DNA from: Scenedesmus sp. PABB004
Lineage: Eukaryota
Reading direction: 5' to 3'
Assembly (NCBI GenBank): GCA_014905635.1
Contig: JABVCE010000035.1
Coordinates: forward strand, 248,001 to 312,000
Length of the DNA: 64,000 bases
Position numbers and translations under genes: made by a program. Below are positions 33,811-63,138 of this stretch, piece by piece. The notes beneath the pieces were generated by a model. That model made no database searches and was not told the DNA's origin. It saw only the letters and a program-made list of their open reading frames with translations. How positions within the stretch are numbered: position 1 is the first letter of the stretch; every line of letters begins with the position of its first letter.

Positions 33811-36800
33811 TCACTTGCGCGAGCGCAGCTTGGTCATGTCGATGGTGGCGGGCCTGCCAGGCGCGCGCCGCGCGGGGGCCGGGGCGGGCGTCGGCGCCGG
33901 CGGCGGCGCGCCCGCGAGCCCGCCGGCCGGCGGCGCCGCGGCGCCGCGCGCCCGCGCGGGCGCGCGCGCACCCGCCGATGTTCTCGCCGCGGCTTGTGAA
34001 GCAGCTGCCGTGGCAGGGGCAGTCCCACCCGCGCTCCTGCGGGTTCCACTCCAGCAGGCAGCCGAGGTGGGGGCACAGCCCCGAGAAGCGGTGCACCTCG
34101 CCGGCCTCGTCCTTGAACACCGCGACCTGCGGCGGGCCCGGCGACGCGCGCGCGGTCAAACGTTGGAGCACGCAGCAGCTGACCAGCCGCCACAGCGCAG
34201 GCACGTCGCGGGCGCGGCGCGGCGGCGCCCGACACGCCCCGCGCCCTGCGTCCGTGCGCGCGCGGCCGCGCCTTGCGCAGCGCGAGCGGGCCGGTGCCGA
34301 CGATGGTGCCTTGCCCGGGGGCGAGGGACTCGATGTCGCGCGCCGCGGCGGCAAAGCGCGGCAGCGGCAGCAGCATGTCCAGCGCCGCCTGCACGGTCGT
34401 CTTGAAGTAGCGCAGGCTCCAGGCGGGCGCGAGCGGCAGCCCCGCGCGCAGCTTGCGGCTGCGGAGCGGCGGCGGCGCGCGTTGGTGGCGGCGGCCGGAC
34501 GCGCGCGTCTGCAACCGGCCGCGCGTGCCCGCTGCGCGTGCGGCGCTCGCACCTGGGGTTGTAGATGTCGCCATACAGGCGCGCCGCCGGCCAGCCGAGC
34601 AGCTGGCTGGCGATGACGTTGCCGGCGAGCGTGCCGCCGGTCATCACGCGCCCGCAGTCGCCTGCGCGGCGGCGCGGGCGTCGCGCGCGTCGCGCGCGCC
34701 GTGCGCGCGGGGCGCGGCGGCAGGGCTCAGTCGCGGGCGCCGCTCGAGCTAACAGCTCACCCGTGGCCACGAAAACGTTGCCCCTGGCCGCGGTGAGCGT
34801 GGGGTCTTGGCCGTACAGGCCGAGGTCCTCGGCGGTCTGGAACACCTGGCGCACGCGGTCGCGGCGGCGGCAGCGGCCGCGGCAGCGTGAGGGGCAGGCG
34901 GCGAGCGAGCGCGGCTGCAGCGCGGCGACGGCGTGCCCAGCGGACCGAGCGCGCGGCGGCGCGCGCGCACGCGCGCCTGGTAGGACCAGCCGTGCACGCG
35001 CTCGCCAGCCATCGGCCAGCGCGCACGCGCCCACGCCTCGAGCGCATCCAGCGGGCGGCCAAACTGCTCGGGACGCTTGCCCTGGTCGTGCGCCTCGCCT
35101 GCGCGTTTTGCCGCATGCGCAGCGGGCGGCGGCGGAGCGGCGGTGGCGCGGCGGTGGCGCGGCGGCGGCGCGCGGAGCCGTGGGCGGCGGCCGCGGCGGC
35201 TGCGTCGTGCGCGACGCGTCGGGCGGGGAGAGGGACCCTGCACCTGGCGCCCCCAAGGCCCGCTGTGCCCCACTGCTGAACTAAACCCTGCGCGGCGCAC
35301 CGGCGACGAGCAGCAGGTCGTGGTAGCCGTTGCCGCTGCCGGGGCGGCCGGGCGCGAGCAGCGCGGTGTGCTGCGGCTCGGAGGTGTCGTAGAAGACGCC
35401 GGCGGGGAGCTTGCTGAACTTTGGGATCTTCAGCGCGACGACGTACCTGGGCCACGGGCGGGCGGCGAGCACAGCGTGGGCGGCAGTGTGTGAGGCGTGT
35501 TCGCCGCGCGCGCGCGGTGGCCGGGGGACAGGCGGCGCGCGCGGAGGAGGGCGGCAGCGGGGACGGCCGCGGGCGGCCGCAGTGCGGCAGGTGCGGCCGC
35601 CGCACCTGCGGCGCACGTGCTGCTTCGCGTGCAGCGCGAGCACGTGCGCGGCGGAGTCCACCAGGTCGCTCGTCACCGGCGCCGCGGTCGCCAGCACGTA
35701 GGCCTGGCGCGCGGCGCGCGGCGCAGGCGGGAGGGCTCAGCGCTCAGTCCAGCGGCGGCCGGGCATGCGCGCCCGCGGTGGCGGACCAGGCGCGCCGCTG
35801 CAGTGCGCGGCGCCGGCGGCGCCGCGCCGGTGGCGGCGTGCGCGCACCTGGCGCGCGGTGACGCGGTGGCCCTCCATCGTGGTCAGCACCTTGGCGGTCG
35901 CGTCCGCCTTGCGCAGGCGCGTGCCCTCGTAGATGCGGCCGCCGTACTTCTCTGTGCGGCGTGGGCGGGCGAGGGCGGCCGCGCGTGCGCGGGGCGCGGG
36001 GCGCGGGGCGCGGGGCGCGGCACGGCGAGGCGTTGAGGGAGAGCGCGCGCGCTGCTTCACGAGCGCGTGCGCGAGCGCGGCTCACCCGTGATGGCGTCGG
36101 CGAGGCCATGCACGTAGCGCACCGGGTCGAGCGTCGCGCCGCCCGGCAGGCGCAGCGCCTTGCCGCCGCCGAGCCGGCCGTCGAGGTCCACCAGCTCGGC
36201 GTCGAGCCCCGCGGCGCGCGCCGCCTCGAGCTCCTGCAGCAGCAGGCGCGCTGCGGCGGCGGCGGCGGCGGCGGGGCACCGCATCGCAGGCAGTGAGCGC
36301 GCGGGGCGCTGGCGGCGACCAGCCAGGCAGCATGCGCCGATCGGCCTCTCGCGAGAGGCCGGCGGCGGAGCGCGCGCACCGGCCTGCCCGCCGCCGCCGC
36401 CGCCGCCGCCGCCGCGCGCGCGCGCGCTCGCGCTGCGCGGGTCGCCGGCGTCGCCGGGCACGGGCGCCGCCGCCGCCGGCAGCACAAAGGTCGGGCAGCG
36501 CTCAAAGCCGCAGGCGATGCCCTCGTCCCTGCGCGGCCGCGGGCACCGCGCGCGGCGCGCACGCTCGGCGCGCGCTCGCCCACGCGGCGCGCAGGTGCGC
36601 GCGGCGCTGGCTGCAGCCAGCTGGCCATGGCTGGGCGCGCAGTTTGGCCCCGCCTCGCCGCGCACCGCACGACGGCCTCCACAAAGTCCACCGCCTCTGC
36701 GTTGCTCGCCGCCACCTGCGTGCGCCGAGGCGGGCGCGACGTCCTGAGCGCGGCGCGCGGCTGCGCGCCCAGCGCCCGCCGGCGCTCGCTCCGGCGCGCG

Positions 36801-37553
36801 CGCACGGCGGCCGCCCTCCCCCCACGCGCCTGCGCGCGCTGCGCGCGCGTGGTCCAGCGCTCGAGGCTTGAGAAGAGGCCGGTGTGCCAGGGGCCAGGCA
36901 TGTCGGCGGGGCAGCGCCCGGTCTGGCCGCCGCCGAGCACGCGCGCCTCGAGCACGACCACGCGCTTGCCTGCCAGGCGCGCGGGGGCGGGGCGGGGCGA
37001 TGGCCAGCGCGCGGGGTCGCGGCCGCGCGCGCACGAGCCGGTCGGCTCGCGCGCGGCCGTCGGCGCGCAGCACGCAGAGCACGCGCGGCGCGCGCGGCAC
37101 GCAGCTCGCACCTCCCCTGGCGAGCAGGAAGGCGGAAGTGAGGCCGGCGACGCCGCCGCCTACGACCACGACGTCCGCCGACGTGTCCTCATCTAGCGGC
37201 GGGAAGCGGCGCTTGATCGCATCCTGGCCCCACGCGTTGGCCGCCAGCCCCGGCGCCGCCGGCGCGCGGCCGCGGCGCGGCGACGCGTCGGCGCCGCGGA
37301 AGCGCAGCGGCGGTGCGTCGGCGGGCGCGGCGGGGGCGGGCGCCTCGGGCTCGCTGCGCGGCGCGTCGCCGGGCGCGTCGGCGTCGCCGGCGGGCGGCCA
37401 CGCGGCGGCGCCGCCGCTCGCGGCCTTGATCGGCGTCGTTATCTTCCTCGCGCCGCGCCGGGGGCGGAGGGCGAGCGCGCGGCGGCCGCTGGCGAGGGCG
37501 GGCGCGGTCGCGGCGCAGCGCACGGCGGGCGCGGCCGCGGCGCGGGCGAGCAT
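33811..37553 (-). CDS. FAD-dependent oxidoreductase (DAO family) fused to a C-terminal Rieske [2Fe-2S] domain (bacterial YhfW-type architecture), organelle-targeted; multi-exon
   Basis: FPPLDEDTSADVVVVGGGVAGLTSAFLLA (GxGxxG); KRVVVLEARVLGGGQTGR; GGRIYEGT; NVFVATGDCGRVMTGGTLAG; Rieske boxes CPHLGC and WDCPCHGS; ends GPATIDMTKLRSRK* at 33811. Confidence 0.9.
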
Positions 37554-38202
37554 CCGGCGAGCGGTGGGGCGCCGTCCGGCGGAGTCCAGGAGCGCGGCAG
37601 GAGTGGCGATGGGCGGGCGCGGCGCGCTGGCCGGCGCCCGTGCGGCGGCACCGCCGCGCCGCGGTCTGCAACGACGCCCGCGCGTCGTCGGCAGGCGGCG
37701 GCGCCCGCCGCGCCGTGCACAGCCGCGCCCCGCTCATCGCATCGCGACGCGCGCAGCTGCGTCCGCGCGCGGCCTCGCTCTGCGGAGCGCCGCGGTCGCG
37801 GCGCCTGCCGCGCGCGCGGCGCGCCAGCTCGCGACGTGCTGCTCGACACGCGATTTGAAGAACTACTGACCTGCCTGGCCCTCGCAGCGAGTGGAGCAGC
37901 ACATTCGTGCTGCCACGCCGCACATCTCGGACTCGCTCGAGCCTCTCCGCGCCCGTACAGCGCACGAGGACCGCCGCTGGTGCAGCCCCAGGGCTCGGCT
38001 GAATGAGGAGCGAGGACTGAGACAGCGCGAGCTCGACCGGAAGCGCCCAGGCGCCGGGCGGCGGCGCCGCAGCAGCGGCGCCGCGCGCGCGCCGCTCGCC
38101 GCCGACGCGCCGCCGCCGCGGCGCCGCGCAGCAGCGGCGCCGCGGCGCCGTCGTCGTCGTCGGGGCCCGCAGGGGCGGCGCGCCTCCCGCCCGCCCTGCG
38201 CC

Positions 38203-39406
38203 ATGCGGCAGTCCAAGTCTCTGGGCAGCCTGGCCAGCTGGCACAAGCAGCGCACCGGCAGCAAGGGCCAGCTGCTCGACGCGGACGACGGCCGGACGTG
38301 GCCGACGTCGCTCGACGCGTACGAGCTGCTGGAGGACTGCGGCCGCGGCGTGAGGTGCGCGGCCCCCCGCCGCGCGAGCGCCGCGCCCGTCCTGCGAGCG
38401 CCGCGCCGCTCGCGCGCCCACGCCGCCGCGCGCCGCGCGTCGCAGCGCCGTGGTCTACCGCGCGCGCGTGCGCGCGAGCGGCGAGGTCGTGGCGATCAAG
38501 GCGCTCAACCTGGAGGCGCTGCAGAGCCCGCTCGAGGACATCATGCACGAGGCGCAGACCATGAAGGCGCGCGCTGCTTGCGCGCGCGGCGCGGCACGGC
38601 GGCGCGGCGCGGCGGCGGCCGCGGCAGCGGGCGCGGCGGCGGGCGCCGGCACGGCCGGCGCGCGCTGGCGGCAGACGCGCCGCCCGGCGCAGGCGTACAA
38701 GCACGAGGCCATCCTGCCGCTGTACTGCAGCTTTGTCAGCGGCTCGGAGCTGTTCATGGTGATGCCGTACATGCAGGCGCGCCGGGCGCTGCGCGGGCCA
38801 GGCGGGGCGGGGCGCTGGCAGCTGGGTCGTCGTCGGGCGGGACGGCGCCCGCGCGCGCCCCCACACGCGCGCCCGGCGCGCGCGCGCCGTCCAGGGCGGC
38901 AGCGTCGCGCACATAATGCGCTACGCCCACCCCGACGGCCTGTCCGAGCCGGTCATTGCGACGATCATGCGCGAGGTGCTGCGGGCGCTTGCATACGGTG
39001 AGCGGCCCGGGCGGCGGGGCGCGCCGGCGCCGCCGCGGCGGCGAGGGGCGCCGGGGGAGGCAGGGCGCGCCCGCCGCGGGGAGGGTCGCCGGCGCGCATT
39101 CCGCCGCGCGCCGCCGCGCCTGGCGGTCGGCGCCACGCCCACGAAGCGCCGGCGCTTGCGCGCGCGCAGTGCACGCGCACGGCGGCATCCACCGAGACAT
39201 CAAGGCCGGCAACATCCTGGTCGACGGCGAGGGCCGCGTCAAGCTCGGCGACTTTGGCGTCGCGAGTGCGCGCCGGCGCCGGCGCCCGCGCCGGCGCCGC
39301 GCACGCCGCGGCGCGGCGCGGCGGCGACGCCCAGCGGCGCCCCAGCGGCGCGCCAGCGGCAGCGCGCGGCGACGCCGCAGCGGGGGGTCGGACGGAGGGC
39401 CGACGC

Positions 39407-39464
<58 letters not shown>

Positions 39465-42400
39465 GCGCAGCCACGCTGGAGCGCGAGGGCGACTGGGGCG
39501 TGAGCACCAAGAGCCGCCTCACCTTTGTCGGCACACCGTGCTGGATGGCGCCCGAAGTGCGGCGGCGCAGCCGCGGGGCCGCTCGCCGGCGCGCGCGCGC
39601 CTCCTGCCGCGCCCGCCCCCGCGCGCCCACGCGGGCCCGTCCGCGGTGCCGCGCGCCGCCGCCGCCCTCCCCCGTGCCTCCCCCGCCCCGCGCAGGTGCT
39701 GGAGCAGACGAGCGGGTACCGCAGCAGGTGCGCGCGCCGGCCGAGCGGCAGCGCGGTTGACCGGCGGCGCACGGCGTCGTGCCCAGCCCGCGCGCGGCGC
39801 GCGGCGCGCGGCGCGCGGCGCGCTGCACGCTCACCCGCCGCCGCCGCCGGCCGCACTGTGTGCGCAGCGCCGACATCTGGAGCTTTGGCATCACCATGCT
39901 TGAGGCGGCGCACGGCCACGCGCCGTTCAGCAGGCTGCCGCCGATGAAGGTCCTGCTGCTCACGCTGCAGGTGGGCCGGCTCGGCGCGCGGTGGCGTTGG
40001 GCGTGGCGTCTGTAGCGTGGCGCGCGGCGCCGCCCACGCGCCGGCGCCGCGCGTGCTTCTTCGCGCCGTCTGCAGGGCCCGCCGCCGCAGCTGGAGGCGA
40101 GCTGCGGCGGACGGCACTTCAGCCGCGGCATGCGCGAGGTTGTGGCGCGCTGCCTGAACAAGGACCCGGCCAAGCGCCCCAGCGCAAAGGACCTGCTGGA
40201 ACACAGGCGCGCGCCGGCCCTCGGACCTGCCGGCAGCGGGCGGGGCGTTGCGCGTGCTGCGCGCCCCGCCGCCGCGCGCGGCGCCGTGCCCCGCCTGCGC
40301 GTGCGCCGAACGCAGGGCGTCCAGCCCCAGGCTTGGACTGTCTCGACCTCGGCCCGCCCGCGGCTGCGCTCGCAGGTTCTTCAAGCAGGCGCGTGACGCC
40401 GAGTTTCTCAAGCGGACGCTGCTGGCGGGCCTGCCGCCGCTGCCCCAGCGCGTCGTCGACATCCGCGCCGGCAAGGCCGCAACGCTCGCCCTCGACAACG
40501 ACCGCGACGCGATGGCCTCGCACATCAGCTACATCACAGACGTCGCGCAGTGGTGTGTGCGGCCCGGCGCGGCGGCGGCGCGCGGCGGCGGGCGCGGCGG
40601 CACGGCGGCGGCGCGCGCGCCCGACGCCCGCGCGCCCGCGCGCCCGGCGCCGCGCCGCCAGGGACTTCAACTGCACAAAGGGGGCGCTGCCGGGCCTGGA
40701 CGCGCCCGCCCCGGGCGGCGGCGGCGGCGCCGCCGCCGCCGGCGGCTCGGCCGGCGACGGCCAGCCCGCCAGCGGGCGGGACCAGGCGGGCGGCGCCGGC
40801 GCCCGCGACGTGGCGCACTCGCAGGCGGCCGAGGACGCGACAGCGGCGCGACCAGGGCAGGTTCAGCAGCAGCCGGGAGTGGTCATCGCGCACGCGGGGC
40901 TGCAGCAGCAGCACGCGCCTGACGCCCAGCAGCAGGAGCAGCAGCAGCAGCAGCAGCAGGCGCCGCCGGTGCTGGCGGGGGATGCTGGCCCGGGCGCGAA
41001 GGACGCGGCGGCGGCGGGCGCTGGCGCCGGCGCAGCCGCGGCCCCGGCCGCGATCTGCTTCGCCGGCGGCAAGCAGGTCGCGGCGTTTGCGCTCGCCTCC
41101 TCCGGCCCCAGCACGCCCGACCGCTCGCCCCTCGGCAGCCGCCCCGCGACGCCCGAGGCCGCCGCGGGCGCGGGCGCCGCGCGCAGCCCCGGGCGCGGCG
41201 CGGCGCCGCCGGGCCGCCCCGGCACGGCCGGCGGCGAGCTGTCGGCGAAGCGGCACGGCAGGTTCACCATCGTTGAGGCGCCCTACCTGGAGGCGGGCTC
41301 GCCCTCTGTGGCCCGGCAGCGCAGCGTCTCCAGCCCCGACATGGGCGGACTCGCGGCGCTGCGGCTCGAGCTGGGCGGCGGCGGCGACGACGCCGGCGAC
41401 GGCGGCGGCGGCGCTGCGGGCGCGCGGCCCGCAGCGCCCCGCGTGAGCGCGCCGGGCGGCAGCGGCGCGCCCGCTGCCCCGGCGGCGGCCGCCGGGGCAG
41501 TGGCGGCACCGGCCGTGACGCAACCGCAGCAGCAGCAGCAGCAGCAGCAGCTGCAGCAGCAGCGGCACCCACCGCCGCCCAGCGCCTTTGCGCAGGAGCA
41601 CGTGCAGGCGGCGGCCTCGCGCGCTGGCTTTGGCGGTGCGTCGTCGAGCGGCTCGCTGGCGAGCGGCTCGCTGGCGCGGCCAGGGGGCTCGCTGTCGGAC
41701 ATCTACGGGGCGCCGGCCGCCGCCGGCGGCCCGCAGCGCAGCGCGAGCCCCGGCTGGGCGCGCGAGCACCACACCGCGGCGCAGGTGTGGGACCACCTCA
41801 AAGGCGTGTGCGCGGAGGCGGTGGACAAGGTGGCGCAGCCCTTCAAGCACCACCACCACCACGCGCAGCACGGCATCGTCGGCGGCGGCGGCTCGCGCGG
41901 CGCGAGCCCGCAGCCGGCCCCGCAGCCGGCGACGCCGCCCGCCGCGCCGTCGCTCGCGGCCGGGCCGGCGTCGCCGCGCGCCGACAGCGCGCTGAGCCTG
42001 GCGAGCGGCGGCAGCGCCGCCGCGGCGCTCCCGTCGTTCGGCAGCAGCGGCAGCAGCACCAGCCGGCCGCCGCGCTACCAGCCCGCGGCGCCGGGCTCGG
42101 CGCGGCGCGAGGGCCAGCCGCTCAGCCCCACGCGCGCGCCGAGCGGCAGCGGCGCCCCGCTGGCGGCGCCGCCCGCGACTGGCGGCGCGGCTGGCGACGC
42201 CGCAGCGGCGTGCCCCGGCGAGCCGGGGCGCACGCTCGCGCCCGAGCCCTCCTTCTCTTCCCAGCTGTCGGCGCAGCCGCCGCCGGCGGAGGCGAGCGGC
42301 AGCGCCGCCGCGGGCGGGCCGCCCGCCGCGGGCGACGCGCCCGCGTCGCCGCCGCGGCTGGAAGGCATCTCCGTGGTGCTGCAGAGCCCCGAGCAGAAGG

Positions 42401-43166: not shown

Positions 43167-44421
<1,255 letters not shown>

Positions 44422-44941
44422 GCCGCCGCCGCGACCGCCGCCGCCGCCGCACGCGCGCTCCGGCGGACGTGTGCCGGGGGCTTGTTTTGATTCCGAATGG
44501 CTTGACGCAGGTGACGCTTGACAAGCGGTTTTCTATTACGACACGTGCACATGACATCACACACACAGCAGTGCTCCATTACGCACTAGGTTGGTTTTCA
44601 AACACACTGCTCGCCGGCGCTCGACAGGCTGAACACTCAAGCGGCGCTCAGTGAGCGCTGAGCGCCCGTTGGCCCTGCTCGGTGACTGCAGTCATTGCCA
44701 CCCACGGCACTAGCACGCTGCGATCTGCCAACGACTCTCATGCTGGCTGCAGAGTGGTCACCCCTGGCCGCAGCCAACCGCACGGCGCGCGCGTGCCTGG
44801 CGCTCGCTGCAGCGTCGCATGACCCCTGTCGTCCTGTCGTGTGTCCCGTGTGCGTGTCTGTAATATGTGCGCCTGTAACATGTGCGTGTGCTCCCAGCGC
44901 GCCCCGCGGGCACGGCTCGGCCGCCAGCGGCCGCAGCAGCA

Positions 44942-45035
44942 GCAGCAGCGCAGGCGCGGAGCGTCGGAGCCGCACCGGCTGCGCCAGGCAGGGCAGCGGT
45001 TGGGCGCGGCTCGTCATGCGCGCCCGCGCTGCTGC
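44942..45035 (-). promoter_or_regulatory. Eukaryotic SECIS element (form 2) in the 3' UTR of the DUF3253 gene
   Basis: Minus-strand RNA: helix I GCAGCAGCGCGGGCGCG / CGCGCCUGCGCUGCUGC; core AUGAC (45017-45013) opposite CGAC (44966-44963); 10-bp helix II GAGCCGCGCC / GGUGCGGCUC; unpaired AA (45001-45000) 11 nt after the core; apical mini-stem GCUGC/GCAGC. Confidence 0.88.
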
Positions 45036-45063
45036 CGCCGCGCGCCGAGACCACCCCGCGCCC

Positions 45064-45705
45064 TCACTCGCCGCTGCCGGCGTCGCTGGCCAGGCCGCCG
45101 CCGCGACCGCCGCCGCCCCTGCCGCTGGCCTCAGCGGGCGGCTCGGCTGCCTGCGGCGCACCGGGCGGCGGCGCGGGTGCCACCGCGCCGTCCGCCAGCC
45201 GCAGCCGCAGCCGGATCGGCCCCTTGACGCAGCCGCGCGGGTCCACCACCTGCGGCGGCGCCGGCGGTGGTGGGCGGCCGCGGGGCGCGGCGGGCTGCGC
45301 ACATGCGCGGGCCAGCCCGCCCCGCCCCGCCGCTGCTCGCCTGGCCCTTCTGCGTGATGTCGATGACCCCCGCCAGCGCGAGGCCTGTCGCTGCGCGCCG
45401 CGTCGCGTCCATCAGGGGCCGCCAGTCGGCGGGGCGGAGCTGCGCGCGCGGCCGTGGCGGGACGCGGCGATTTGCGGCGGCGGCGGCAGCGGGCGGCGGC
45501 TGCCGCGGCGCTGGTGCCGGCGCTGCCGCACCTGGCGCGGCACCTCGCTGGGTCAGCAGGTCGCGCCGCGGCGGCGGCCGGCGAGGAGGGCGAGAATGGC
45601 CGCGCCGAGCTGCTCCTCGTCGATCTCCGCCGCGCTGGCGGCGCGCGGCCGCTTGGCCGGCGCGCGCTGCTCGGCGGCGCCGCCGCCGCGCTTCCTGCTG
45701 GCCAT
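45064..45705 (-). CDS. DUF3253-family protein with in-frame UGA (candidate selenoprotein), 152 aa; exons 45705-45532, 45439-45341, 45249-45064
   Basis: Spliced translation MASRKRGGGAAEQRAPAKRPRAASAAEIDEEQLGAAILALLAGRRRGATC(U)PSEVPRQ|LRPADWRPLMDATRRAATGLALAGVIDITQKGQ|VVDPRGCVKGPIRLRLR.. follows the DUF3253 pattern as I recall it (IL.LL..R...TICPSE.AR....WR.LM..VR.AA..L...G.I.ITQKG..VDP....GPIRLR). TGA is at 45555-45553 (codon 51), both introns are phase 0, and a SECIS lies downstream. Confidence 0.88.
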
Positions 45706-46056
45706 GTCGCGCGGGGCCGCGTGGCAGCGGCGGGCGGTGTGGGGGCGGCAGCGGCTGCAGCGGCAGCGATTGCCCGGCCGGCGTCAGCGGCAGCGGCGGG
45801 GGTGTGTGGGCGGCAGCGGCTGCAGCGGCAGCGATTGCCCGGGCCACCTGCGTCACGGCGGCGCAGCGAAAAACCGCCGCCGCCGCTCGGCTGCGCTGCG
45901 CGCATCCCCGCCGCCTGCACAGCCCGCGACCAGACAGCGGCCAGCGCTCGACACCCGCGCCCGGCCACGCCTTCGCTGCGACACCCCGCGCCAACCGCCA
46001 GCGCCGAGCTCCGCCGCGGCGGCGCAGGCCGCGCGCCCCCGCGGCGGGCCGGCGAC

Positions 46057-46927
46057 ATGCTGGGCCACAGCCTGAGCCTGGACGGCGGCAAGGGCAGCGC
46101 CGGCGGCGCGGCGCCGGGCGTCTGGGCGGCGGCGGCGGCGCAGCAGCAGCCCGGGGCGGCGGCGCCGCCGCACCAGGCGGCGGCGGGCCCGCCGCAGGCG
46201 CCGGCGGCGGACGAGCACCTGTTCCACACGCCGCCCGACATGCTGTGCCCCATCACGCTCTGCCTGGTGCGGCGGCGGCCCGGCGGCGGCCCGGCCCGGC
46301 GCGCTGCGCTCTTGCCGCGCTTCACCCCGCTCGCCGCTCGCCGCGGCCGCGCGTGCGTCCCCCGCAGTTCCAGGACCCGGTCTGCAACGCGCTGGGGCAG
46401 GTCTACGAGCGCGGCGCGATCCAGCGGCACCTCGTGCAGGCGGCGGTCAGCGGCGCGCCGCCGACCGACCCCATCTCCAACGCGGTGCTGCCGAGCCTCG
46501 ACCTCGTCCCCGTCTGGCCGATGCGCAGCCGCGCGGCGCAGTACCGCGAGTCGACCGCGCGCGCGTGCGTCGCCGCCGCGGCGGCTCCGGGCTGCGCCGC
46601 GCCGGCGCGCTACCTGCGCCGCGCGGCGGAGCTCGTGCTGCCCGGCGGCGGCGCCGAGGGCGGCGGCGCCCCGGGCGCGCCGCTGGCGGGGCAGGCGCCC
46701 GCGGCGGCGGCGCCGAGCGTGCCCGGCATGTCGCCCGATTTTGCGCGCTACCTCGCGGCGCACACCGACCCCGCGTGCGACGCGGCGCTGGTGAAGTACT
46801 TTGGGCACGAGCTGCTGCGCGCGGGCGCGCACGACGCGGCAGCCGACGTCTTCCACCGCCTCCTGCTCGGCGCGGAGGGCCGCGCCGCGCAGGCCGAGTA
46901 CCTGCAGCTCTGCCTCGACTGCTGGGC

Positions 46928-46974
<47 letters not shown>

Positions 46975-46978
46975 CGGC

Positions 46979-47024
<46 letters not shown>

Positions 47025-47702
47025 GAGCCGGCGGCGGCGCCAGCGGGCGCCGCCAGCCCCGCGGTCGTGCGCAAGCTCGCCGACTTTGTGCAGCGGCAGC
47101 GCAGCGTCGGCGCGGCGGCGATCGTGGAGATGCTGGCGGGCATGCACCACGGCCCCCGCGCCGCGCTCGCGCTGTGCCAGGAGCTGCTCGCCCGCGCAGC
47201 AGCCGCCGCCGCCGCGAGCGCGGGCCCCGACGCCGAGGCGGCGCTCGGGCTGCCCGGCGGCCTTGGAGGCGTCCTGGAGGTGCTGCTGGCGCTCGTCGCG
47301 CTCGGCGAGCAGCAGCTGCAGGAGCAGCTGCGCGCGCTGGCGGCGCAGGTCGCGGCGCTGCAGGCGGCGAGCGCGGGGCGGCCGGCCGGCAGCGGCGGCG
47401 TCGACGCTGGCGCCGCCGCGGCGGCGGGCGCCGCGGCGGGCGCTCTCCCCGGCGCCAGCAGCAGCAGCAGCGGCGGCGGCGGCGGCGGCGCGAGCGGCGC
47501 GGCAGCCGGCCTGGCGCGGCCGGCGCGGCGGCAGGGCGCGCGCTGGCGCGGCGGCAAGGGCGCGGGGGTGCTGCTGGGCCGGCTCGCGCGCGGCGCGGCG
47601 GCGGGCACGCTGGCGGCCGCGTCGCTCGCGAGCGGCAACGCGCCCTGGCTGCGCGCTGCGCGGCTGGCGCCGCTGCTCTACCTCCTGCGCGCGGGCCTGT
47701 GA
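46057..47702 (+). CDS. U-box domain protein (putative E3 ubiquitin ligase) with a coiled coil; 2 exons
   Basis: TPPDMLCPITLCL|FQDPVCNALGQVYERGAIQRHL..PTDPISNAVLPSLDLVPVWPMRSRA is a U-box. Later LQEQLRALAAQVAALQ coiled coil. Intron about 46267-46367. Confidence 0.85.
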
Positions 47703-48172: not shown

Positions 48173-49853
48173 ATGTCGGACGGGCTCTCGCGCATCGAGC
48201 TCAAGGCCGCGGCCTATGGCGCCCGCTACGCCCAAGAGGATGGCGAGGAGCGTGGGCTGCTGCGCACCGCGCCCGACCCCGCGGCCGCGCAGGCGCGCCG
48301 CGCGCCGCCGCGCGCCGCCGCGCGCGCCGCCGCGCGCCGCGGCCGCCGGCACCCCGCCGGCCGCGCCGACCCGCGCGCCGCCCCGCCGCAGCTGGAGGAC
48401 GGTGACGGCGGCGCCGTGCCGTCGTCGTACGACAGCGGCGACCTGCTGCCCGTGATGATTGAGAATGGCCTCGACAAGATCGGCGTGCTGTGCGTGCCGG
48501 TGCACCGCTCGCTGCGCGCGCCGCACGCGCCGGCCGCTGCGCCCCTGCCGGGCCCGGCCGCGCGAGGGCGCTCGCCAGCGCTGCCGAGGAGCTGAGCCTG
48601 CTCCCGCCGCGCGGCGCCCTGAACCCCGCAGGCGGCACATCAACCGGGTGCTCGACAACACCGGCCAGATCCGCAGCGAGCTCTTCCGCTGCCTCGTTGC
48701 CGAGTTCATGGGCACGCTGCTCTTCCAGATCTTCGGCGGCGCCGCGCCGCCCAAGGACACGACCGCGCCCGCCGCCAATGGCTTTGCGCTCGTCTGCATC
48801 GGTGCGTGGCGCCGCGCGCCGCGCGCCGCGCGGCGGCCGCCGCTGCCGCCGCGCCGGCGCCGGCTGACCGACCCGCACGTGCCCACCGCGGGGCCGGCGG
48901 GCGCGCGCAGTGTACGCGTTTGCCAACATCAGCGGCGCGCACCTCAACCCGGCGGTGTCGTTTGCGCTCATGTGCACGGGGCACATGAAGTGGTGGAGGG
49001 GCCTGCTCTACATGACCATGCAGGCGCGTGCGGGGCGCGTGCGCACACGCGCGGCCGCCGCGGCAGACGGCCCCGCGCGCGGCCGCCGGTCAGCGTGCGG
49101 TCAGCGCCCGCGTGGCCCCACGCCGCCGCCTGCGCGCCGCGCCACACACCGCGCCGCGCGCCGCGCTGCAGGTGCTGGGGTCCATCATTGGCTCGCTCAT
49201 CTACGCCGGCCTCATCCCCGGCCTGCGCGTCGGCGCGACCTACACGACCGGCATCACCGCGCCGGGCTGCTTCGGGCCCGGCCCCGACGTGCGCGCCGCG
49301 GCGCCGCGGCGCCTCGCCGCGGACCGCCGCTGCGCACCGTCGCATGCGACGCTCGACCGCCGCGCCGCGCCTGCGCGCAGGTGACCAACGCGGAGCTGTT
49401 CTGGTGGGAGGTGCTCATGACCTTCCTGCTCGTCGTGACGGTCTACGCCGCCGCGGTGTCCAAGCCGGGGCACGGCAACACCGCGCCGCTCGCGATCGGC
49501 CTCGCCCTCTACGCCGCCGCGCTCACCGGTGCGGCGGCGCCGCGCCGGCCGTGGGCGGTGGCGGGGGCCGGGCCGCGCGGCAGGGCTGCACGGGCGAGCC
49601 GCCGCGCCGCGCACGCGCAGGCGGGCCGTACACCGGCGCGTCGCTCAACCCCGCACGCACGATCGGGCCGTCGGTCGTGTTTGCCTGCAACGTCGGCATC
49701 TCCTTCTGCTACATCTTCGCCGAGTTCTTTGGCGGCGCGCTCGCCGCGGGGCTGGCCATCTTCCTGTACGGCCGCGCGCCGGTCGGTCGCGCCGCGCCGG
49801 CCGGCCGCGGCGCCGGCGGCGCCGGCGGCGCCGCGGCGGCGGCGGCCTGCTAG
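48173..49853 (+). CDS. Aquaporin / major intrinsic protein; about 7 exons
   Basis: FRCLVAEFMGTLLF; ANISGAHLNPAVSF; WEVLMTFLLVVTV; APLAIGLAL; YTGASLNPARTIGP. Two NPA boxes and six TM helices. Confidence 0.96.
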
Positions 49854-50258
49854 GCGGCGCGAGGAGCGGTCCCAGAGGGTGTGTGGGACGCCAGCGACGA
49901 GGGGTCAGGGTGGAGGGCAGCGTGCGGGCGCGGCGAGGGCGGGTGCGCGAGCGCGGGCGGGCGGGGGCCGAGCGCGCGGCGACGGCAGAGGCGGCGGCGG
50001 CGGGCGCCCGTTGATCGGTCTCTCGGCACACCTGCGCGCTATGCGCAGCTCTGATAGATGAGCGGCGGCGGCGGCGGCAGGGGTCACCGCCGCGCGGGCT
50101 GACCGCAGCAGCAGCGGCGCGCGGCGTGACGCGAGTGACTCTGGTCGCCGCGACTCGTCGCACGGTGCCGCGCCGTCCCCGCCGGACATTCATCAGTCCG
50201 CCGGGCAGTCGCGCCCGTACGTGGCCCCTCGCGGCGATCTGCCGACGACCCTCGCGGC

Positions 50259-52259
50259 ATGGCGCCCACGCCGCGCGCGGGGCTGGGCCTGCTGGCCCTC
50301 GCCAGCGTGCTCCAGGTGCCTACAGCTGCTCCGCGCGACTGCGCCCGGCGGCGCGGCGCCTGCGCCGCCCTGCAGCGTCCACGGCAGCGACCACCGCTGC
50401 TGCCGCGCTGCTGCTCTCACGCTGCCGCCGCGGCCGCCGCAGCTGGCCGCCGCGGCTGCTCTCACGCTGCCGCCGCCGCCGCCGCAGCTGGCCGCCGCGG
50501 CGCCGCCCGTGAGCCAGGTGCTCCGTGACAACGGCTTCAGCCTGTGGCTGCGCCTGATGGAGCCGGTGGGCTTCCTGCCCGACGAGCACATCCCGGCGGG
50601 CCTGCCGGTGACGCTGCTGGCGCCGACCGACAAGGTGCGGTGTGGGCGCGGCGGCGGCTGCTCCTCAGCGGCAGCGGCGGCCGCGGGCACGTCACCCCGT
50701 GCCCACTGCGCCGCGCCGCGCCGCGCCGCGCGCGGCGCGTCGCCAGGCCGTGACCGAGTTTGCGCGTGCGATGTCGCTGAGCGTCGACGAGCTCGCGCGC
50801 ACGCCCGCGCTCGTGGACACGCTGCTGTCCTACTCGCTGCTCCCCGGCGCCGCGCTCACCGGCAGCAAGCTCGCGGCCGGCGGGCCGCCGCGCCTCGCGC
50901 GCAGCGCCAACCCCGCGTTCTCGGTCGAGCTCTTCCGCGCGCCGGGCGGCGGGCTCGCCGCGACGGACGTGCAGGGCAACGTCGCGGCGCTGAGCGGCGG
51001 CTGGGACGCCGCCGACCGCGTGCGCGTCTACGGCGCGAGCCGCGTGCTGCTCAACGGCGAGAGCCCCGCGCCGCCGCGCGCGCTGCCGCCCCGCGCCGCT
51101 GCACACGCCCGCGCCGCCCGTCACTCGCCCGCACCCGCCCCACACCCGCACCGCCGCCGCCGCGCAGGCGACGTGTTCACCAGCCCCGCCGCCTTCCTGA
51201 CCTTTTACCCCCGCTTCAGCGCCCTCGCGGCGCTCACCAAGCGCGTGGGCCTGTGGCCCACGCTGCAGCGGAGTGACCTCGACCGCACGCTCTTTGCGCC
51301 GAGCAACGCCGCGCTGCGCGCCGACGGCGGCGCGGCGGCCGCGGCCGAGGCGGGCGGCCTGAGCGCGCTGCTGCGCTACCACGTCGTGCAGGTGCGCCGC
51401 GGCGGCGGGGGCCTTCACGGCGCGCGCGCGGCGCGCCCCGGCGCGCGGAGGAGCGCTGCGCGCCGCGCGGGGGTGCCCACGAGCGCCCCCCGCCGCGCCG
51501 CGCCGCAGGGCTCCCGCCGCGTGCCGTACGGCTTCAAGGCCGGCGTGGCCGTGCCGACGCTGCTCGCGGGCAACACGCTCTCGCTGCGCTACGGCACCAA
51601 GCGCGTCGCCGTCGCGGGGACCAACGGCTCCCTCGTGCTCACGACCGCCGACGTCGTGCCGGAGGCGGGCTCGCCCGGCAAGCCGGCGCGCATCGTGATG
51701 GCCAACGTCTTCGCCGGCCGGGTGAGAGGCCTAGGGCCGCGCCGCGCCGCGCCGCGCCGCGCGCCGCACCCCGCCGCGCCGGCGCGCCGCCGACCGCCGG
51801 CCGCCCCGCCCTGCCGCCGGCCGCCGCCGTGGCCGCGCGCTGCCGCCGCAGGCGACCATCCACGGCATTGACCGCGTGCTGCTCCCGCGGCCCCAGGCCG
51901 GCCGCCGCCTGCTCTGGCGCGGCGGCTTTGCGCGCTACGGCGGCGGCGGCGGCTTCGCGGGCGGCTTTGACGGCCGCTGGCGCGGCGGTGCGGACGCGTT
52001 CCGCGCCCCCGCCTACTGGACCACGCACGACCCCAACTCGCGCTGGGGGCTGCAGTACGCGGCCGCGCGCGCGGCGGCGGCGGGCGCGGGCTACGGCGAG
52101 TCGTGGGGCGCGTGGGGGCCGCGCATCCCCGCGCCGATCGGCGTGCCCGTGCCCGCCGTGGCCGACGCCGGGGACTACAACACCTACGACACCAACTACG
52201 ACGCGCCCGGGGAGCTCAAGTCGCTCGAGACCGAGGACAACGGCTGCTACAACTGCTGA
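50259..52259 (+). CDS. Secreted protein with two fasciclin (FAS1) domains and a C-terminal extension after an RRLL motif; about 6 exons
   Basis: Signal peptide MAPTPRAGLGLLALASVLQLAAA. FAS1 motifs VTLLAPTDKA..LLSYSLLP..VYGASRVLL and RTLFAPSNAA..LLRYHVV..TIHGIDRVLLP. Then GRRLLW and a Gly/aromatic-rich tail ending GCYNC*. Confidence 0.88.
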
Positions 52260-52439
52260 CCGCCAGGGCGGTGCTCGCATCGGTGGGCGCCGCTGCGGCG
52301 GGCTCGGGAGAGCCCGCGGAACCGCCGCGGCAGCCGGTTACAACGGCTGCGGTTCCGGGTGGTTGTGATGCAACAAAATGCGCGCGCGCCGCGGCGAGGG
52401 GCTGCAGTGTTTCAGCAGCGTCGGCGGCGCCGCGCGGGC

Positions 52440-53374
52440 CTAGAACCAGGCCCACCAGATGAGCCCGATCGTCAGCAGCACGGTCGCGACCTGCGCGCCG
52501 CCGCGGCGCAGGCGTCAACAGGGTCAGCAGGGGCCGCTCTGCCGCCCTGCTGCGCCGCCCTGCCGCTGCTCTGCCGCGCCGCCGCTGCTCTGCTGCGCCG
52601 CGCCGCGCCGCCGCGCCGCCGCACCATGCCGCCGACCGCGATGTACGCGTCGGTGCGGTGCCGGCGCTCAATCATCTTGAGCACGCTCTCGCCCAGGCCG
52701 ACGCTGTTTATGACGTCCAGCACCTTGGTCTGCGCCGCCTTGATGCGCTCCCGGTTGGCCGACATGCCGGCGAGTATGCTCGTGCCCTGCTCGCGCCGCG
52801 CCGCGGGGCGCGCGGTCACCGGCGCGGCGGTCGAGTGGCGCCGCGGCCGGGCGCCTGGGCGGCCGCCGCCGCCGGCGCCGCCGCGCGAGCGCCGCGCGCC
52901 TGCTCAAACATCTCCCCGAGGTAACGGCGGCTGCGGCCGATGTGCCCCGCGACCGCGGCCTCCTCGTCCATCTCGTCCTTGACGCGCCGCCCCGCCTCGG
53001 CGCGCGCGAGCAGCTCGTCGCGGTCCGCCGCCTCGCGCTGGCGCAGCGCCTGGCGGCCGCCGAAGCGCTCGAGCGAGGTGCGCAGGAAGTCAGCCTCCTC
53101 CGACACCTGCTCCACCTTCCTGCGCGGCGGTCGTCGCGGCGGACGACGCCTCCGCAACCGGGGGCCGCGTCGCCGCCGCCGCCGCTGCCGCTAGCTGCTG
53201 CGGGGCCCCCGCGTGCGCCGCGCACGCGCCTCTTCCAGACGTCGTGCTTGGCCGTCTGCTGCCGCACCAGCGCCATGCGCCAGCTGCCGTCCAGCTCTCT
53301 GCTGGTCCGCTGCGGGCGGCGGGGAGGGGGGCGGGGGGGCGGGGGAGGCTGGGGCCAGCGCGCGCCTCGCCGCC

Positions 53375-53410
<36 letters not shown>

Positions 53411-53718
53411 GCAACCGCAGCAACCGCCGCCGCGCGGTCGCGCCGCTGCCGCGCCTGCAGCTCCGCCAGCTTCTGCTGCAGGTCCCGCGCCAGCATTGAA
53501 GGGTCCCCGGGTCGCAGGCCATGCTGCGGGCCGCCGGCGGCGCCCGGCGGGTGGGTGCAGCGGCCGGTGCTCGCCGCTCGCTGCTGCCGCGCCGCGCCGC
53601 GCCGCCACCGCGCCCACGCCGCCCGGCCCACCTCTGCCGCTTCCAGGCGCTCCAGGCCCTCCCTCAGCGAGAGTATCAGGCGCGTGGACTGCGCGTGCAG
53701 GCGCGGGAGGTCCGTCAT
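52440..53718 (-). CDS. Membrin / GOSR2 / Bos1 Qb-SNARE; 6 exons
   Basis: LREGLERLE..; VWKRKVEQVSEEADFLRTSLERF..RDELLARA; GTSILAGMSANRERIKAAQTKVLDVINSVGLGESVLKMIERRHRTD; C-terminal TM anchor VATVLLTIGLIWWAWF*. Minus-strand TGTAA at 52342-52338. Confidence 0.93.
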
Positions 53719-54024
53719 GCCGGCCCGGCCCTCTCGCGCGCGCAGGTCGAGGCAGGGGAGGGCCGGCTGCAATGCGGGGCGCGACGGGCGCAACGCCACG
53801 CATCGACAGCGGCCGCCTGCGCGCCAGGGCTTAAACTTTGACCGCTCAGCTGTCGGCGCCGCTTCCGCAGCTGCCGCCGCGCGTGCGGCCGCCCAGACCG
53901 CCCCGCCGCAGGCAGGCAGCATCGCGACGGCCGCCATGCACGCACCCGGCGGCTGAGCCGGGCGCCCTGTTGCGCGGTCGGCGCCGGCGCACGACAACGT
54001 CGCGCCGCGCGCCGCCGCCGGGCC

Positions 54025-56294: not shown

Positions 56295-56378
<84 letters not shown>

Positions 56379-56750: not shown

Positions 56751-56801
<51 letters not shown>

Positions 56802-60557: not shown

Positions 60558-60640
60558 GCGAGAGCTGCGGGCGCGGCTCCGCCTGTGACTCCAAACACAG
60601 CGCGCGGCCGGGCCGTCCGTCACACTGCTGGGCAGCTCGC

Positions 60641-63092: not shown

Positions 63093-63138
<46 letters not shown>

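What the first reader, a model, noticed from the sequence alone, without database searches (positions are those of the whole stretch)
44942..45705. Hidden selenoprotein gene: DUF3253 protein with Cys-Sec (C-U-P-S-E) and a canonical SECIS
Seen in the sequence: a compact three-exon minus-strand gene whose frame contains TGC-TGA-CCC-AGC-GAG (UGA at 45555-45553). Family-like sequence continues seamlessly on both sides of the UGA, and a complete SECIS begins about 30 nt after the real stop. Established: green algae decode UGA as Sec through 3'-UTR SECIS elements, and Sec typically aligns with a conserved Cys in homologues. From my recollection of the DUF3253 consensus (T-I-C-P-S-E), the UGA falls exactly on that Cys. 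Inference: this is a genuine selenoprotein. I know of no DUF3253 member among described selenoprotein families, which are mostly thioredoxin-fold or Msr oxidoreductases, so it may define a new family. It would also mark that Cys as the functional redox or metal residue of an uncharacterised domain. Gene finders would truncate or mis-splice it.
Basis: partly seen in the sequence, partly recalled or inferred. Interest (0 to 1): 0.95.

Follow-up and report, generated by a model that had tools for sequence, protein, structure and literature searches.

The report
New selenocysteine winged-helix (DUF3253) gene
A small three-exon gene in this very GC-rich, probably algal genome most likely encodes a selenoprotein of a family not so far listed among selenoproteins, which marks that family's one invariant cysteine as its working residue.

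Summary
On the minus strand a three-exon gene (45705-45064) encodes a 152-residue DUF3253 protein. Its codon 51 is TGA (45555-45553), at the family's invariant Cys (the CPS[E/D] motif). The spliced, read-through protein matches a bacterial DUF3253 profile end to end (104 bits). A product stopped at the TGA scores 6.6 bits.

A form-2 SECIS (ATGA, 12 nt, AA, then GA; helix II of 10 bp) lies 46 nt after the real stop. It is the only strict-pattern hit in the 64 kb on both strands; 0.03 per window are expected by chance.

Three independent metagenome loci carry TGA at the same codon with conserved sequence after it. One has a canonical SECIS. One has a GTGA-type candidate. One contig ends 210 nt after the stop. 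Two intron-bearing homologues and 14 bacterial ones have Cys.

Rfam SECIS_1 is the top hit for two of the elements, but below its threshold. No reads, transcripts or whole genome could be examined.

I found no DUF3253 selenoprotein in the algal, Ostreococcus or GOS catalogues that I could read. Verdict: a genuine Sec gene (about 0.8) and probably a new selenoprotein family. Its biochemical function is inferred only.

The parts
45532..45705 (-). Exon 1. ATG at 45705. It holds a basic N-terminal stretch (KRPR-type), helix 1 of the domain and the Cys-Sec-Pro-Ser-Glu motif.
   Evidence: Pfam DUF3253 profile 2-28. Aligns with 2ns0 residues 4-32.
45553..45555 (-). In-frame TGA, codon 51, read as selenocysteine. 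It is preceded by TGC (Cys50).
   Evidence: Aligns with the invariant Cys of the family. The same codon is TGA in L001, L002 and L007.
45440..45531 (-). Intron 1, 92 nt, GT-AG, phase 0.
   Evidence: P0004 has the same exon junction (PRR|LRPSDW). P0002 and P0006 start by reading through this intron's end.
45341..45439 (-). Exon 2, holding helix 3 and the first wing strand (DWRPLM ... ITQKGQ).
   Evidence: Pfam DUF3253 profile 36-65, 30.9 bits. Aligns with 2ns0 residues 35-65, E 1.3e-6.
45250..45340 (-). Intron 2, 91 nt, GC-AG (donor CAG|GCGAGC), phase 0.
   Evidence: Splicing raises the profile score from 80.8 to 104.3 bits and restores the GPIRLRL end of the domain. Four homologues read a GTN codon (Val) at this position, which fits a donor site there. 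No transcript was seen.
45064..45249 (-). Exon 3, holding the end of the domain (VVDPRGCVKGPIRLRL) and a low-complexity tail. Stop TGA at 45066-45064.
   Evidence: profile positions 61-77.
44945..45032 (-). Form-2 SECIS in the 3' UTR. Helix I, then ATGA at 45017-45014. Helix II is 10 bp. AA at 45001-45000 lies in a 5-nt bulge. A mini-stem and apical loop follow. GA is at 44965-44964.
   Evidence: It is the only strict-pattern hit in the window, with 0.03 expected. Rfam SECIS_1 is the top hit over the full model, 18.2 bits, E 0.21 on 106 nt, below the gathering score of 35. The spliced distance from the UGA to the core is 352 nt.

Best explanation
This is a working nuclear gene for a small (152 aa) selenoprotein of the DUF3253 winged-helix family.

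The mRNA is made from three exons. The UGA at codon 51 is read as selenocysteine because a form-2 SECIS hairpin in the 3' UTR, 352 nt downstream in the spliced message, recruits the eukaryotic Sec-insertion machinery (SBP2, eEFSec, Sec-tRNA). The next in-frame TGA, at 45066-45064, ends translation.

Sec replaces the single invariant Cys of the family. In the model of the L002 orthologue this residue sits three residues before helix 2 of the winged-helix fold. In this gene it follows a Cys directly, giving a Cys-Sec pair.

The following steps are inferred, not shown.
- The Sec is the reactive (redox or nucleophilic) centre of the protein.
- It probably cycles through a selenenylsulfide with the neighbouring Cys, as in the C-terminal Cys-Sec of thioredoxin reductase.
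- The protein acts on or near nucleic acid. The leads are its winged-helix fold, the basic N-terminal stretch, bacterial fusions to a zinc ribbon and occasional DNA-repair neighbours.
For: Shown by tools.

(1) Gene model. The spliced protein with the TGA read through aligns to positions 2-77 of an 80-position profile built from 11 bacterial members, at 104.3 bits. Reading through intron 2 gives 80.8 bits, reading through intron 1 gives 31.3, and stopping at the TGA gives 6.6. Codon-position GC is 0.82/0.67/0.93.

(2) The TGA falls on the family's invariant Cys.

(3) The same codon is TGA in 3 of the 13 loci confirmed in the metagenome scan (L001, L002, L007).
- Seven of the 13 have TGC or TGT. 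In three (L008, L010, L012) no CPSE-type motif was found.
- With the TGA read as a residue, L002 matches Pfam DUF3253 over profile 2-81 (95.6 bits) and L007 over 2-80 (71.5 bits).
- L001 has a GT-AG intron at a different position from the window's, so it is an independent eukaryotic lineage.

(4) SECIS.
- The strict pattern gives one hit in the window, 46 nt after the stop, against 9 hits in 300 simulated windows.
- L002 has an ATGA-type element about 100 nt after its stop.
- With the core held unpaired, the window, L002 and L007 all fold into the helix I / core / helix II / AA-bulge / mini-stem shape.
- Rfam SECIS_1 is the best family for the window element (18.2 bits) and for L002 (15.9 bits), over the full model.

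(5) Cys-containing homologues with introns exist. P0004 has Cys-Cys at the site and the same exon 1/2 junction. P0005 has Arg-Cys.

(6) Fold. The model of the L002 domain has pLDDT 92.8 and matches 2ns0 at TM 0.89. After 2ns0 only generic winged-helix proteins follow.

From established knowledge (recalled, not tested here):
- Sec/Cys pairs in homologues mark catalytic redox cysteines.
- The ATGA-to-AA spacing of 12 nt and the UGA-to-SECIS distance lie in the usual range.
- Ostreococcus SECIS elements mostly carry G before the core (read in PMC2375036, section 8), which fits the L007 candidate.
Against: - The Rfam matches lie well below the family's gathering score (18.2 and 15.9 against 35). 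In the first search of 1.5 kb no SECIS was listed at E up to 10.
- The hairpin is not more stable than shuffled sequence of this 80% GC composition (z = -1.2).
- L001 has no SECIS in the 210 nt before its contig ends.
- The L007 candidate is non-canonical. Its GTGA core overlaps the stop codon and helix II has a bulge. Rfam did not find it. The relaxed pattern that finds it gives 0.23 chance hits per 4 kb strand.
- Intron 2 needs a GC donor, and no transcript was available to confirm it.
- Only this 64-kb window could be searched, not the rest of the genome. I could not look for tRNA-Sec, SBP2, eEFSec, PSTK, SepSecS or SPS, and the window holds no tRNA gene.
- The functional part rests on weak leads. 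DNA-repair or replication genes lie within about 2 kb in 4 of 8 distinct bacterial loci, without a control. The tree does not resolve where the eukaryotic genes come from.
Confidence: 0.8

Rival explanations
1. Decaying pseudogene. The TGA is a nonsense mutation of the Cys codon, and the downstream hairpin is one of the many stable GC-rich hairpins of this genome.
For: TGC to TGA is a single change. Everything folds in 80% GC DNA (z = -1.2). The Rfam score is below threshold. No expression data exist.
Against: The same codon is TGA in three other, diverged loci whose downstream sequence still matches the family at 54-96 bits. The window has no other frame disruption, and both introns keep their splice signals. 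The strict SECIS pattern is expected 0.03 times per window, yet it sits 46 nt after this stop.
Confidence: 0.05
2. Base-calling or assembly error. The true codon is TGC or TGT, and the protein is an ordinary Cys-Cys DUF3253 like P0004.
For: P0004 has Cys-Cys at exactly this site. Reads could not be inspected.
Against: An error would not explain the SECIS after the stop. It would also not explain TGA at the same codon in three unrelated assemblies, one of them with its own SECIS.
Confidence: 0.04
3. The UGA terminates translation. The gene yields only a 50-residue peptide, or an NMD-targeted transcript. Alternatively the downstream exons are translated from another start.
For: UGA is also this gene's ordinary stop codon. 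Sec insertion is never fully efficient (general knowledge).
Against: A product ending at the UGA keeps only 18 profile positions (6.6 bits). Exon 2 has no ATG before the domain core. The DWRPLM ... GPIRLRL part is kept in frame across two introns. The SECIS is unexplained under this reading.
Confidence: 0.04
4. The gene is a real selenoprotein, but the family is already catalogued under another name. Possible places are the online algal selenoprotein database, an unreadable supplement, or a subscription paper. This would remove the novelty only.
For: I could not read the supplement of the 137-species algal survey or its database. The library lacks most subscription journals. That survey has a 'Hypo' family whose sequence I did not see.
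Against: 'DUF3253' occurs in 0 papers of the library. Ostreococcus hypothetical selenoproteins 1-3 end in GCUG or CUGR, or contain GLUN, and have no DUF3253 motifs. The GOS selenoprotein sequence files contain no DWRPLM or GPIRL, and UPSE occurs there only in a peroxiredoxin and a rhodanese. The three-term search for selenoprotein, winged helix and SECIS gave two unrelated papers (listing only).
Confidence: 0.15

Closest known systems
Pfam PF11625 (DUF3253); solved member PDB 2ns0 (hypothetical protein RHA04536, Rhodococcus sp.)
   Same: The domain is the same from end to end and the winged-helix fold is the same. The L002 orthologue model matches 2ns0 at TM 0.89, 52% identity. The motifs CPS[E/D], DWRPLM and GPIRL are shared.
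   Different: The invariant Cys is encoded by TGA (Sec). The gene is eukaryotic, with two introns, an N-terminal basic extension, a C-terminal low-complexity tail and a 3'-UTR SECIS. The Atlas's three best-scoring clusters are 100% bacterial among members with a taxon record.
Known algal selenoprotein genes: the 42 families of Jiang et al. 2020 (PMC7539508) and the Ostreococcus set of Lobanov et al. 2007 (PMC2375036)
   Same: The recoding set-up is the same: an in-frame UGA at a Cys position of homologues, and a form-2 SECIS with a mini-stem in a short 3' UTR. Cys forms occur in related species.
   Different: The protein family is not among the names listed or the sequences I could read. According to that paper about half of the algal families have a thioredoxin-like domain. 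This one is a winged helix.
Thioredoxin reductase C-terminal Gly-Cys-Sec-Gly redox centre (comparison from recalled knowledge)
   Same: Cys and Sec are adjacent. This is seen in the window, L001 and L002, and as Cys-Cys in P0004. Such a pair could form a vicinal selenenylsulfide.
   Different: The pair is internal, just before helix 2 of a small winged-helix domain, not on a flexible C-terminal tail of a flavoenzyme. L007 and all bacterial members lack the neighbouring Cys. No redox partner is known.
[quoted passage not shown]
   Same: It is a precedent for Sec replacing a reactive Cys in a protein that is not a thioredoxin-fold oxidoreductase. From recall, untested here, it is a small DNA-binding protein.
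   Different: No sequence relation was tested or seen. The Pfam scans of the DUF3253 exons and homologues returned only DUF3253, or DUF2256 in the fusions. The position of the reactive residue in the fold differs (recalled).

Membership tests
Eukaryotic selenoprotein gene (UGA-Sec plus 3'-UTR SECIS) | In-frame UGA with family-like coding sequence on both sides | tested here: met
   Profile alignment runs unbroken across codon 51, 104.3 bits against 6.6 if stopped at the TGA. Pfam hits on exons 1 and 2.
Eukaryotic selenoprotein gene (UGA-Sec plus 3'-UTR SECIS) | UGA aligns with Cys in homologues | tested here: met
   The column is Cys in 14 distinct homologues and TGA in 4. It aligns with the Cys of 2ns0.
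Eukaryotic selenoprotein gene (UGA-Sec plus 3'-UTR SECIS) | SECIS in the 3' UTR: ATGA core, AA 9-13 nt on, GA on the 3' side, helices I and II | tested here: met
   All elements are present, helix II is 10 of 10 bp and the ATGA-to-AA spacing is 12 nt. It is the single hit in the window, with 0.03 expected.
Eukaryotic selenoprotein gene (UGA-Sec plus 3'-UTR SECIS) | Match to a curated SECIS covariance model above threshold | tested here: inconclusive
   Rfam SECIS_1 is the top hit over the full model, but at 18.2 bits against a gathering score of 35. It was not listed in the 1.5-kb search. SECISearch3 was not available.
Eukaryotic selenoprotein gene (UGA-Sec plus 3'-UTR SECIS) | Orthologues keep UGA and a SECIS | tested here: met
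   TGA is kept in L001, L002 and L007. L002 has a strict-pattern SECIS. L007 has a relaxed GTGA-type candidate. L001 has none before its contig ends.
Eukaryotic selenoprotein gene (UGA-Sec plus 3'-UTR SECIS) | The genome encodes tRNA-Sec and the Sec machinery | not testable with these tools
   No whole genome is held. There is no tRNA gene in the window.
Eukaryotic selenoprotein gene (UGA-Sec plus 3'-UTR SECIS) | Transcript and selenium incorporation | not testable with these tools
   No sequencing run was listed. Labelling or mass spectrometry is needed.
Pfam DUF3253 (PF11625) | HMM match at or above the curated cut-off (22.1 bits) | tested here: met
   Exon 2 alone scores 30.9 bits and exon 1 scores 21.0. 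The spliced protein could not be sent to Pfam. A bacterial profile built here gives 104.3 bits.
Pfam DUF3253 (PF11625) | Winged-helix fold of 2ns0 | tested here: met
   Tested on the orthologue L002, not on the window protein: pLDDT 92.8, TM 0.89 to 2ns0.
Pfam DUF3253 (PF11625) | Invariant Cys in the CPS[E/D] motif | tested here: not met
   The codon is TGA, that is Sec in place of Cys. The rest of the motif (PSE) is kept. This is a substitution by the selenium analogue and does not exclude membership.
Previously catalogued algal or marine selenoprotein families | Sequence or name present in the published lists | tested here: not met
   Not among the names in PMC7539508. Not the Ostreococcus hypothetical proteins 1-3. 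Not in the GOS sequence files. 'DUF3253' is in 0 papers. The supplement of PMC7539508 was unreadable.

The most novel reading that the evidence does not exclude
DUF3253 is a so far unrecognised class of small winged-helix proteins with a reactive chalcogen centre. They would work on or beside DNA, for example as a redox-switched or nucleophile-bearing factor linked to DNA repair. Eukaryotic algae would have acquired the gene from bacteria and upgraded its single catalytic Cys to Sec, giving a new eukaryotic selenoprotein family that does not have a thioredoxin fold. The Cys-Sec pair would then form a vicinal selenenylsulfide switch inside a DNA-binding fold.
Probability: 0.3. Interest if true: 0.85.

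Novelty: new variant of a known kind. Interest (0 to 1): 0.72.

Why it matters
New eukaryotic selenoprotein families are rare. According to the algal survey about half of the algal families carry a thioredoxin-like domain.

A Sec form of a winged-helix 'domain of unknown function' would do three things.
- It would add a family to the algal selenoproteome that homology-based pipelines miss.
- It would point to one residue, the Cys of CPS[E/D], as the functional centre of the whole DUF3253 family, most of whose known members are bacterial. That gives a direct handle for experiments: Cys/Sec mutants, redox titration, DNA binding.
- It shows that gene finders mis-model such loci. Database proteins P0002 and P0006 begin inside the intron and lack exon 1. 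P0004 and P0005 run on into intron 2.

Tried and rejected
- Whole-genome search for the family and the Sec machinery: no genome is held.
- Sequencing runs for reads and RNA: none was listed.
- Earlier findings of this scan: nothing for this genome, this sequence or look-alike stretches. A word search gave two unrelated notes on known Ostreococcus and Micromonas-like genes; neither was used.
- The search for homologous proteins:
  - Exon 1 gave nothing.
  - Exon 2 alone was too short.
  - Exon 2 with 12 nt more on each side gave nothing.
  - P0005 found only itself.
- tblastn of exon 2 against plasmids: no match.
The three-row A2 worked.
- Rfam on 1.5 kb listed no SECIS. Only the 106-nt search did.
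- Rfam on the L001 and L007 downstream regions found no SECIS.
- Tree of 17 sequences: 0 of 14 inner branches are well supported. It gives no statement on eukaryotic monophyly or on a donor.
- TGTAA poly(A)-signal count as a test for a green alga: 7 on both strands against about 5 expected, so uninformative.
- ESM Atlas: only bacterial DUF3253 clusters.
- Bacterial gene neighbourhoods: heterogeneous. This is a lead, not a finding.
- Rejected readings:
  - A bacterial-type SECIS. The window gene and L001 have introns, and L002 has an intron-like acceptor just before the domain.
  - TGA reassigned genome-wide. This gene's own stop codon is TGA.
Full report
OBSERVATION

The minus strand of 44700-46000 reads TGC-TGA-CCC-AGC-GAG, with the TGA at 45555-45553. 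A three-exon model joins in frame to a 459-nt CDS of 152 codons, with the first stop at codon 51 and the final stop TGA at 45066-45064.
- Exon 1: 45705-45532.
- Intron 1: 92 nt, GT-AG.
- Exon 2: 45439-45341.
- Intron 2: 91 nt, GC-AG.
- Exon 3: 45249-45064.

The window is 80% G+C. GC at codon positions 1, 2 and 3 of the model is 0.82, 0.67 and 0.93, which is the pattern expected of coding sequence in such a genome.

FAMILY

Pfam DUF3253 (PF11625) hits two exons. Exon 1 covers profile 2-28 at 21.0 bits. Exon 2 covers profile 36-65 at 30.9 bits, against a cut-off of 22.1. Exon 3 carries only about 16 domain residues and scores nothing on its own.

Instead I built a profile in a script from 11 bacterial members taken from fetched loci, and scored four alternative products.

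| Product | Score (bits) |
|---|---|
| Spliced, TGA read through (profile 2-77 of 80) | 104.3 |
| Intron 2 read through | 80.8 |
| Intron 1 read through | 31.3 |
| Stopped at the TGA | 6.6 |

The three-exon read-through model is therefore the one the family supports.

The GC donor (CAG|GCGAGC) is unusual. Four homologous database proteins show a Val (GTN) codon exactly there, followed by unrelated sequence. That is what a read-through donor site looks like.

THE TGA SITS ON THE FAMILY'S CYS

phmmer against PDB aligns exon 1 with 2ns0 so that codon 51 faces the Cys of ICPSDVAR. Exon 2 aligns with residues 35-65 of the same chain at E 1.3e-6.

In the 16-row alignment A3 the column is filled in 13 rows. 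Nine are Cys and four are TGA. Five further genome loci are also Cys. L016 duplicates L003 and is counted once.

INDEPENDENT LOCI WITH THE SAME TGA

A phmmer search with exon 2 against 1.84 billion representatives gave six hits. Two (P0001, P0003) are repetitive proteins unrelated to the family. The other four are DUF3253 fragments.
- P0004 reads Cys-Cys at the site and has the same exon 1/2 junction as the window.
- P0005 reads Arg-Cys.
- P0002 and P0006 start inside the intron before exon 2 and lack exon 1.

A scan of JGI metagenome contigs with alignment A2 gave 13 confirmed loci. I read the frames in a script.
- Three loci have TGA at the homologous codon with conserved sequence after it: L001, L002 and L007.
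- Seven have TGC or TGT and look bacterial (uninterrupted genes).
- Three weak matches (L008, L010, L012) have no CPSE-type motif.

With the TGA read as a residue, L002 matches Pfam DUF3253 over profile 2-81 at 95.6 bits. L007 matches over 2-80 at 71.5 bits.

Notes on the three TGA loci:
- L001 is 73% GC. It has a GT-AG intron of 117 nt between PSE and VARQ, four codons upstream of the window's intron 1.
- L002 is 50% GC. An intron-like acceptor (TTTTGCAG) lies just before the domain, and there is no ATG in the open frame.
- L007 is 56% GC. Its gene is followed within about 80 nt by an 873-codon ORF with a Rubisco-activase-type AAA module and a rhodanese domain. This suggests a compact photosynthetic genome.

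Four diverged genes with a stop codon at one and the same functional codon, each otherwise intact, are not what pseudogenes or sequencing errors produce.

SECIS

The 91 nt after the stop fold into a long hairpin. With the UGA and GA of the core held unpaired, the fold shows these parts in order:
- helix I of 14 bp;
- an internal loop carrying AUGA on the 5' side and GA on the 3' side;
- helix II of 10 Watson-Crick or GU pairs;
- a 5-nt bulge with AA, 12 nt after the AUGA;
- a 5+2 bp mini-stem and an apical loop.

This is a form-2 SECIS.

I wrote a strict pattern: ATGA; AA 9-13 nt later; GA 30-75 nt later; helix II with at most two mismatches; at least 6 of 7 pairs in helix I.
- It hits once among the 104 ATGA sites of the window on both strands, at 45017-44964.
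- In 300 second-order Markov simulations of the window it hit 9 times in all, or 0.03 per window.
- The chance of a hit within a few hundred bases after one given stop codon is of the order of 1e-4.
- The same pattern finds an element in L002 at 1074-1121, about 100 nt after its TAG stop at 970.

Rfam results:
- SECIS_1 is the best-scoring family over its full length for the window element (18.2 bits, E 0.21 on 106 nt) and for L002 (15.9 bits, E 0.94).
- Both lie far below the gathering score of 35.
- The first Rfam search, on 1.5 kb, listed no SECIS at E up to 10.
- From recall, I take this as the known weakness of that model outside animals. As it stands it is a weak result.

L007:
- It has a hairpin of the same architecture whose core is GUGA and overlaps the stop codon.
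- Rfam did not find it.
- A relaxed pattern that accepts it gives 0.23 chance hits per 4-kb strand.
- Ostreococcus SECIS elements almost all carry G before the core and a long mini-stem (PMC2375036, section 8), so the candidate is plausible but unproven.

L001 shows nothing in the 210 nt before its contig ends in homopolymer.

In the spliced window mRNA the UGA lies 352 nt before the SECIS core.

STRUCTURE AND LIKELY FUNCTION

An AlphaFold2 model of the L002 domain (alignment A3) has mean pLDDT 92.8. Foldseek against PDB gives 2ns0 first (E 1e-9, TM 0.89). After it come only generic winged-helix proteins such as Fur, DsrD, MarR and linker histone, at E of 0.01 or more.

The Sec is residue 22 of the model. 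It lies three residues before helix 2 (residues 25-30) and directly after a short strand.

The residue before Sec varies:
- Cys in the window, L001 and L002;
- Cys-Cys at the site in P0004;
- Leu in L007;
- Arg in P0005;
- Ile, Leu, Phe or Ala in the bacterial members.

Other leads, all weak:
- Three bacterial loci fuse the domain to a DUF2256 zinc ribbon (L005, L011, L019).
- Among 8 distinct bacterial loci with flanks, 4 have a DNA-repair or replication gene within about 2 kb.
  - L004 has a Pol III alpha, DnaE2-like by my reading, immediately upstream.
  - L014 has an Fpg/Nei glycosylase immediately upstream and an Lhr helicase immediately downstream.
  - L006 has a UDG-superfamily gene about 1.7 kb away.
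  - L019 has LigD about 1.6 kb away.
  - The other four loci have none, and I ran no control for how often such genes lie near any gene.
- The eukaryotic proteins carry basic N-terminal stretches. This is my reading of the sequences; no predictor was run.

From this I infer that Sec is the reactive centre of a small nucleic-acid-associated protein, possibly cycling through a Cys-Sec selenenylsulfide. The inference rests on the rule, recalled from the literature, that Sec/Cys pairs mark catalytic redox cysteines. I have not shown it.

ORGANISM

No genome is held for the window and no run was listed. The window encodes intron-split eukaryotic genes:
- histone deacetylase;
- a DDB1/CPSF1-type propeller;
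- an RRM protein;
- a U-box protein;
- a MIP channel;
- a fasciclin protein;
- a UGP3-like protein. UGP3 is, from recall, a plastid sulfolipid-pathway enzyme.

This fits a photosynthetic eukaryote. 'Green alga' is likely but not demonstrated here.

NOVELTY

- 'DUF3253' occurs in none of the roughly 8.4 million full texts searched.
- Jiang et al. 2020 (PMC7539508; I read the abstract, sections 5 and 22, and passages) list 42 algal families, none of this kind. Their supplement could not be read.
- Lobanov et al. 2007 (PMC2375036; passages, section 8, and passages of supplement 2) give the sequences of the three Ostreococcus 'hypothetical' selenoproteins. These are different proteins.
- Liang et al. 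2019 (PMC6627142; passages only) name no such family.
- Zhang and Gladyshev 2008 (PMC2398784; passages and a search of four supplementary files) have no sequence with the family's motifs.
- Two further searches gave nothing relevant, judged from their listings only.

Subscription papers and on-line databases were out of reach. I put the chance that the family is already catalogued under another name at about 0.15.

VERDICT

The gene is real and almost certainly Sec-decoding (0.8). It is a Sec variant of a known but uncharacterised protein family, decoded by the ordinary eukaryotic mechanism. It is probably a new selenoprotein family. What the protein does is open.

Noticed in passing
window 45723-45861: A 65-nt unit repeated 2.2 times (87% matches) lies directly upstream of the ATG of the DUF3253 gene. 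It sits in the region shared with the divergently placed U-box gene.
   Followed up: no
window 43968-44206: A perfect (CGC)80 trinucleotide array (99% matches) lies about 740 nt beyond the SECIS. In the + frames it reads as long poly-Arg, poly-Ala or poly-Pro runs.
   Followed up: no
window 44859-44878 (+ strand): Two TGTAA motifs on the + strand lie 70-85 nt from the 3' end of the SECIS, in the only sub-60% GC patch nearby (44451-44650). This suggests that a convergent + strand gene ends here and that the two 3' ends abut. TGTAA is not enriched in the window overall: 7 found against about 5 expected.
   Followed up: partly
window 45250-45340: Intron 2 of the gene needs a GC-AG splice (donor CAG|GCGAGC). 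Homologues in other species appear to have GT at the same position.
   Followed up: partly
window 45228-47699 (+), 48459-50058 (+), 50612-51868 (+): Neighbouring genes: a U-box protein placed head to head with the DUF3253 gene, a multi-exon MIP/aquaporin gene, and a fasciclin-domain gene.
   Followed up: no
window 3-1766 (-), 2230-6270 (-), 22150-24144 (+), 28788-29783 (-): Pfam hits in open frames: histone deacetylase, an RSE1/DDB1/CPSF1 second beta-propeller, an RRM, and UGP3-like C-terminal hexapeptide repeats. Open frames of 170 codons or more in 30086-39900 and 52260-64000 were not scanned.
   Followed up: no
L007:1360-1460: The stop codon TGA of the Sec-containing DUF3253 gene is itself the UGA of a GUGA-type SECIS-like core. 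The next ORF (Rubisco-activase-like AAA plus rhodanese, 1463-4081) opens about 80 nt later. This is an extremely compact arrangement.
   Followed up: partly
L014:2890-8097: In a Botrimarina (planctomycete) genome the DUF3253 gene lies between an Fpg/Nei-type DNA glycosylase gene and an Lhr helicase gene, all on one strand. In L004 it directly follows a Pol III alpha (DnaE2-like) gene.
   Followed up: partly
L005:313-705, L011:484-939, L019:2887-3351: Three loci, two of them metagenome contigs of unknown organism and one (L019) a Thermoleophilia genome, encode a fusion of a DUF2256 zinc ribbon with DUF3253.
   Followed up: partly
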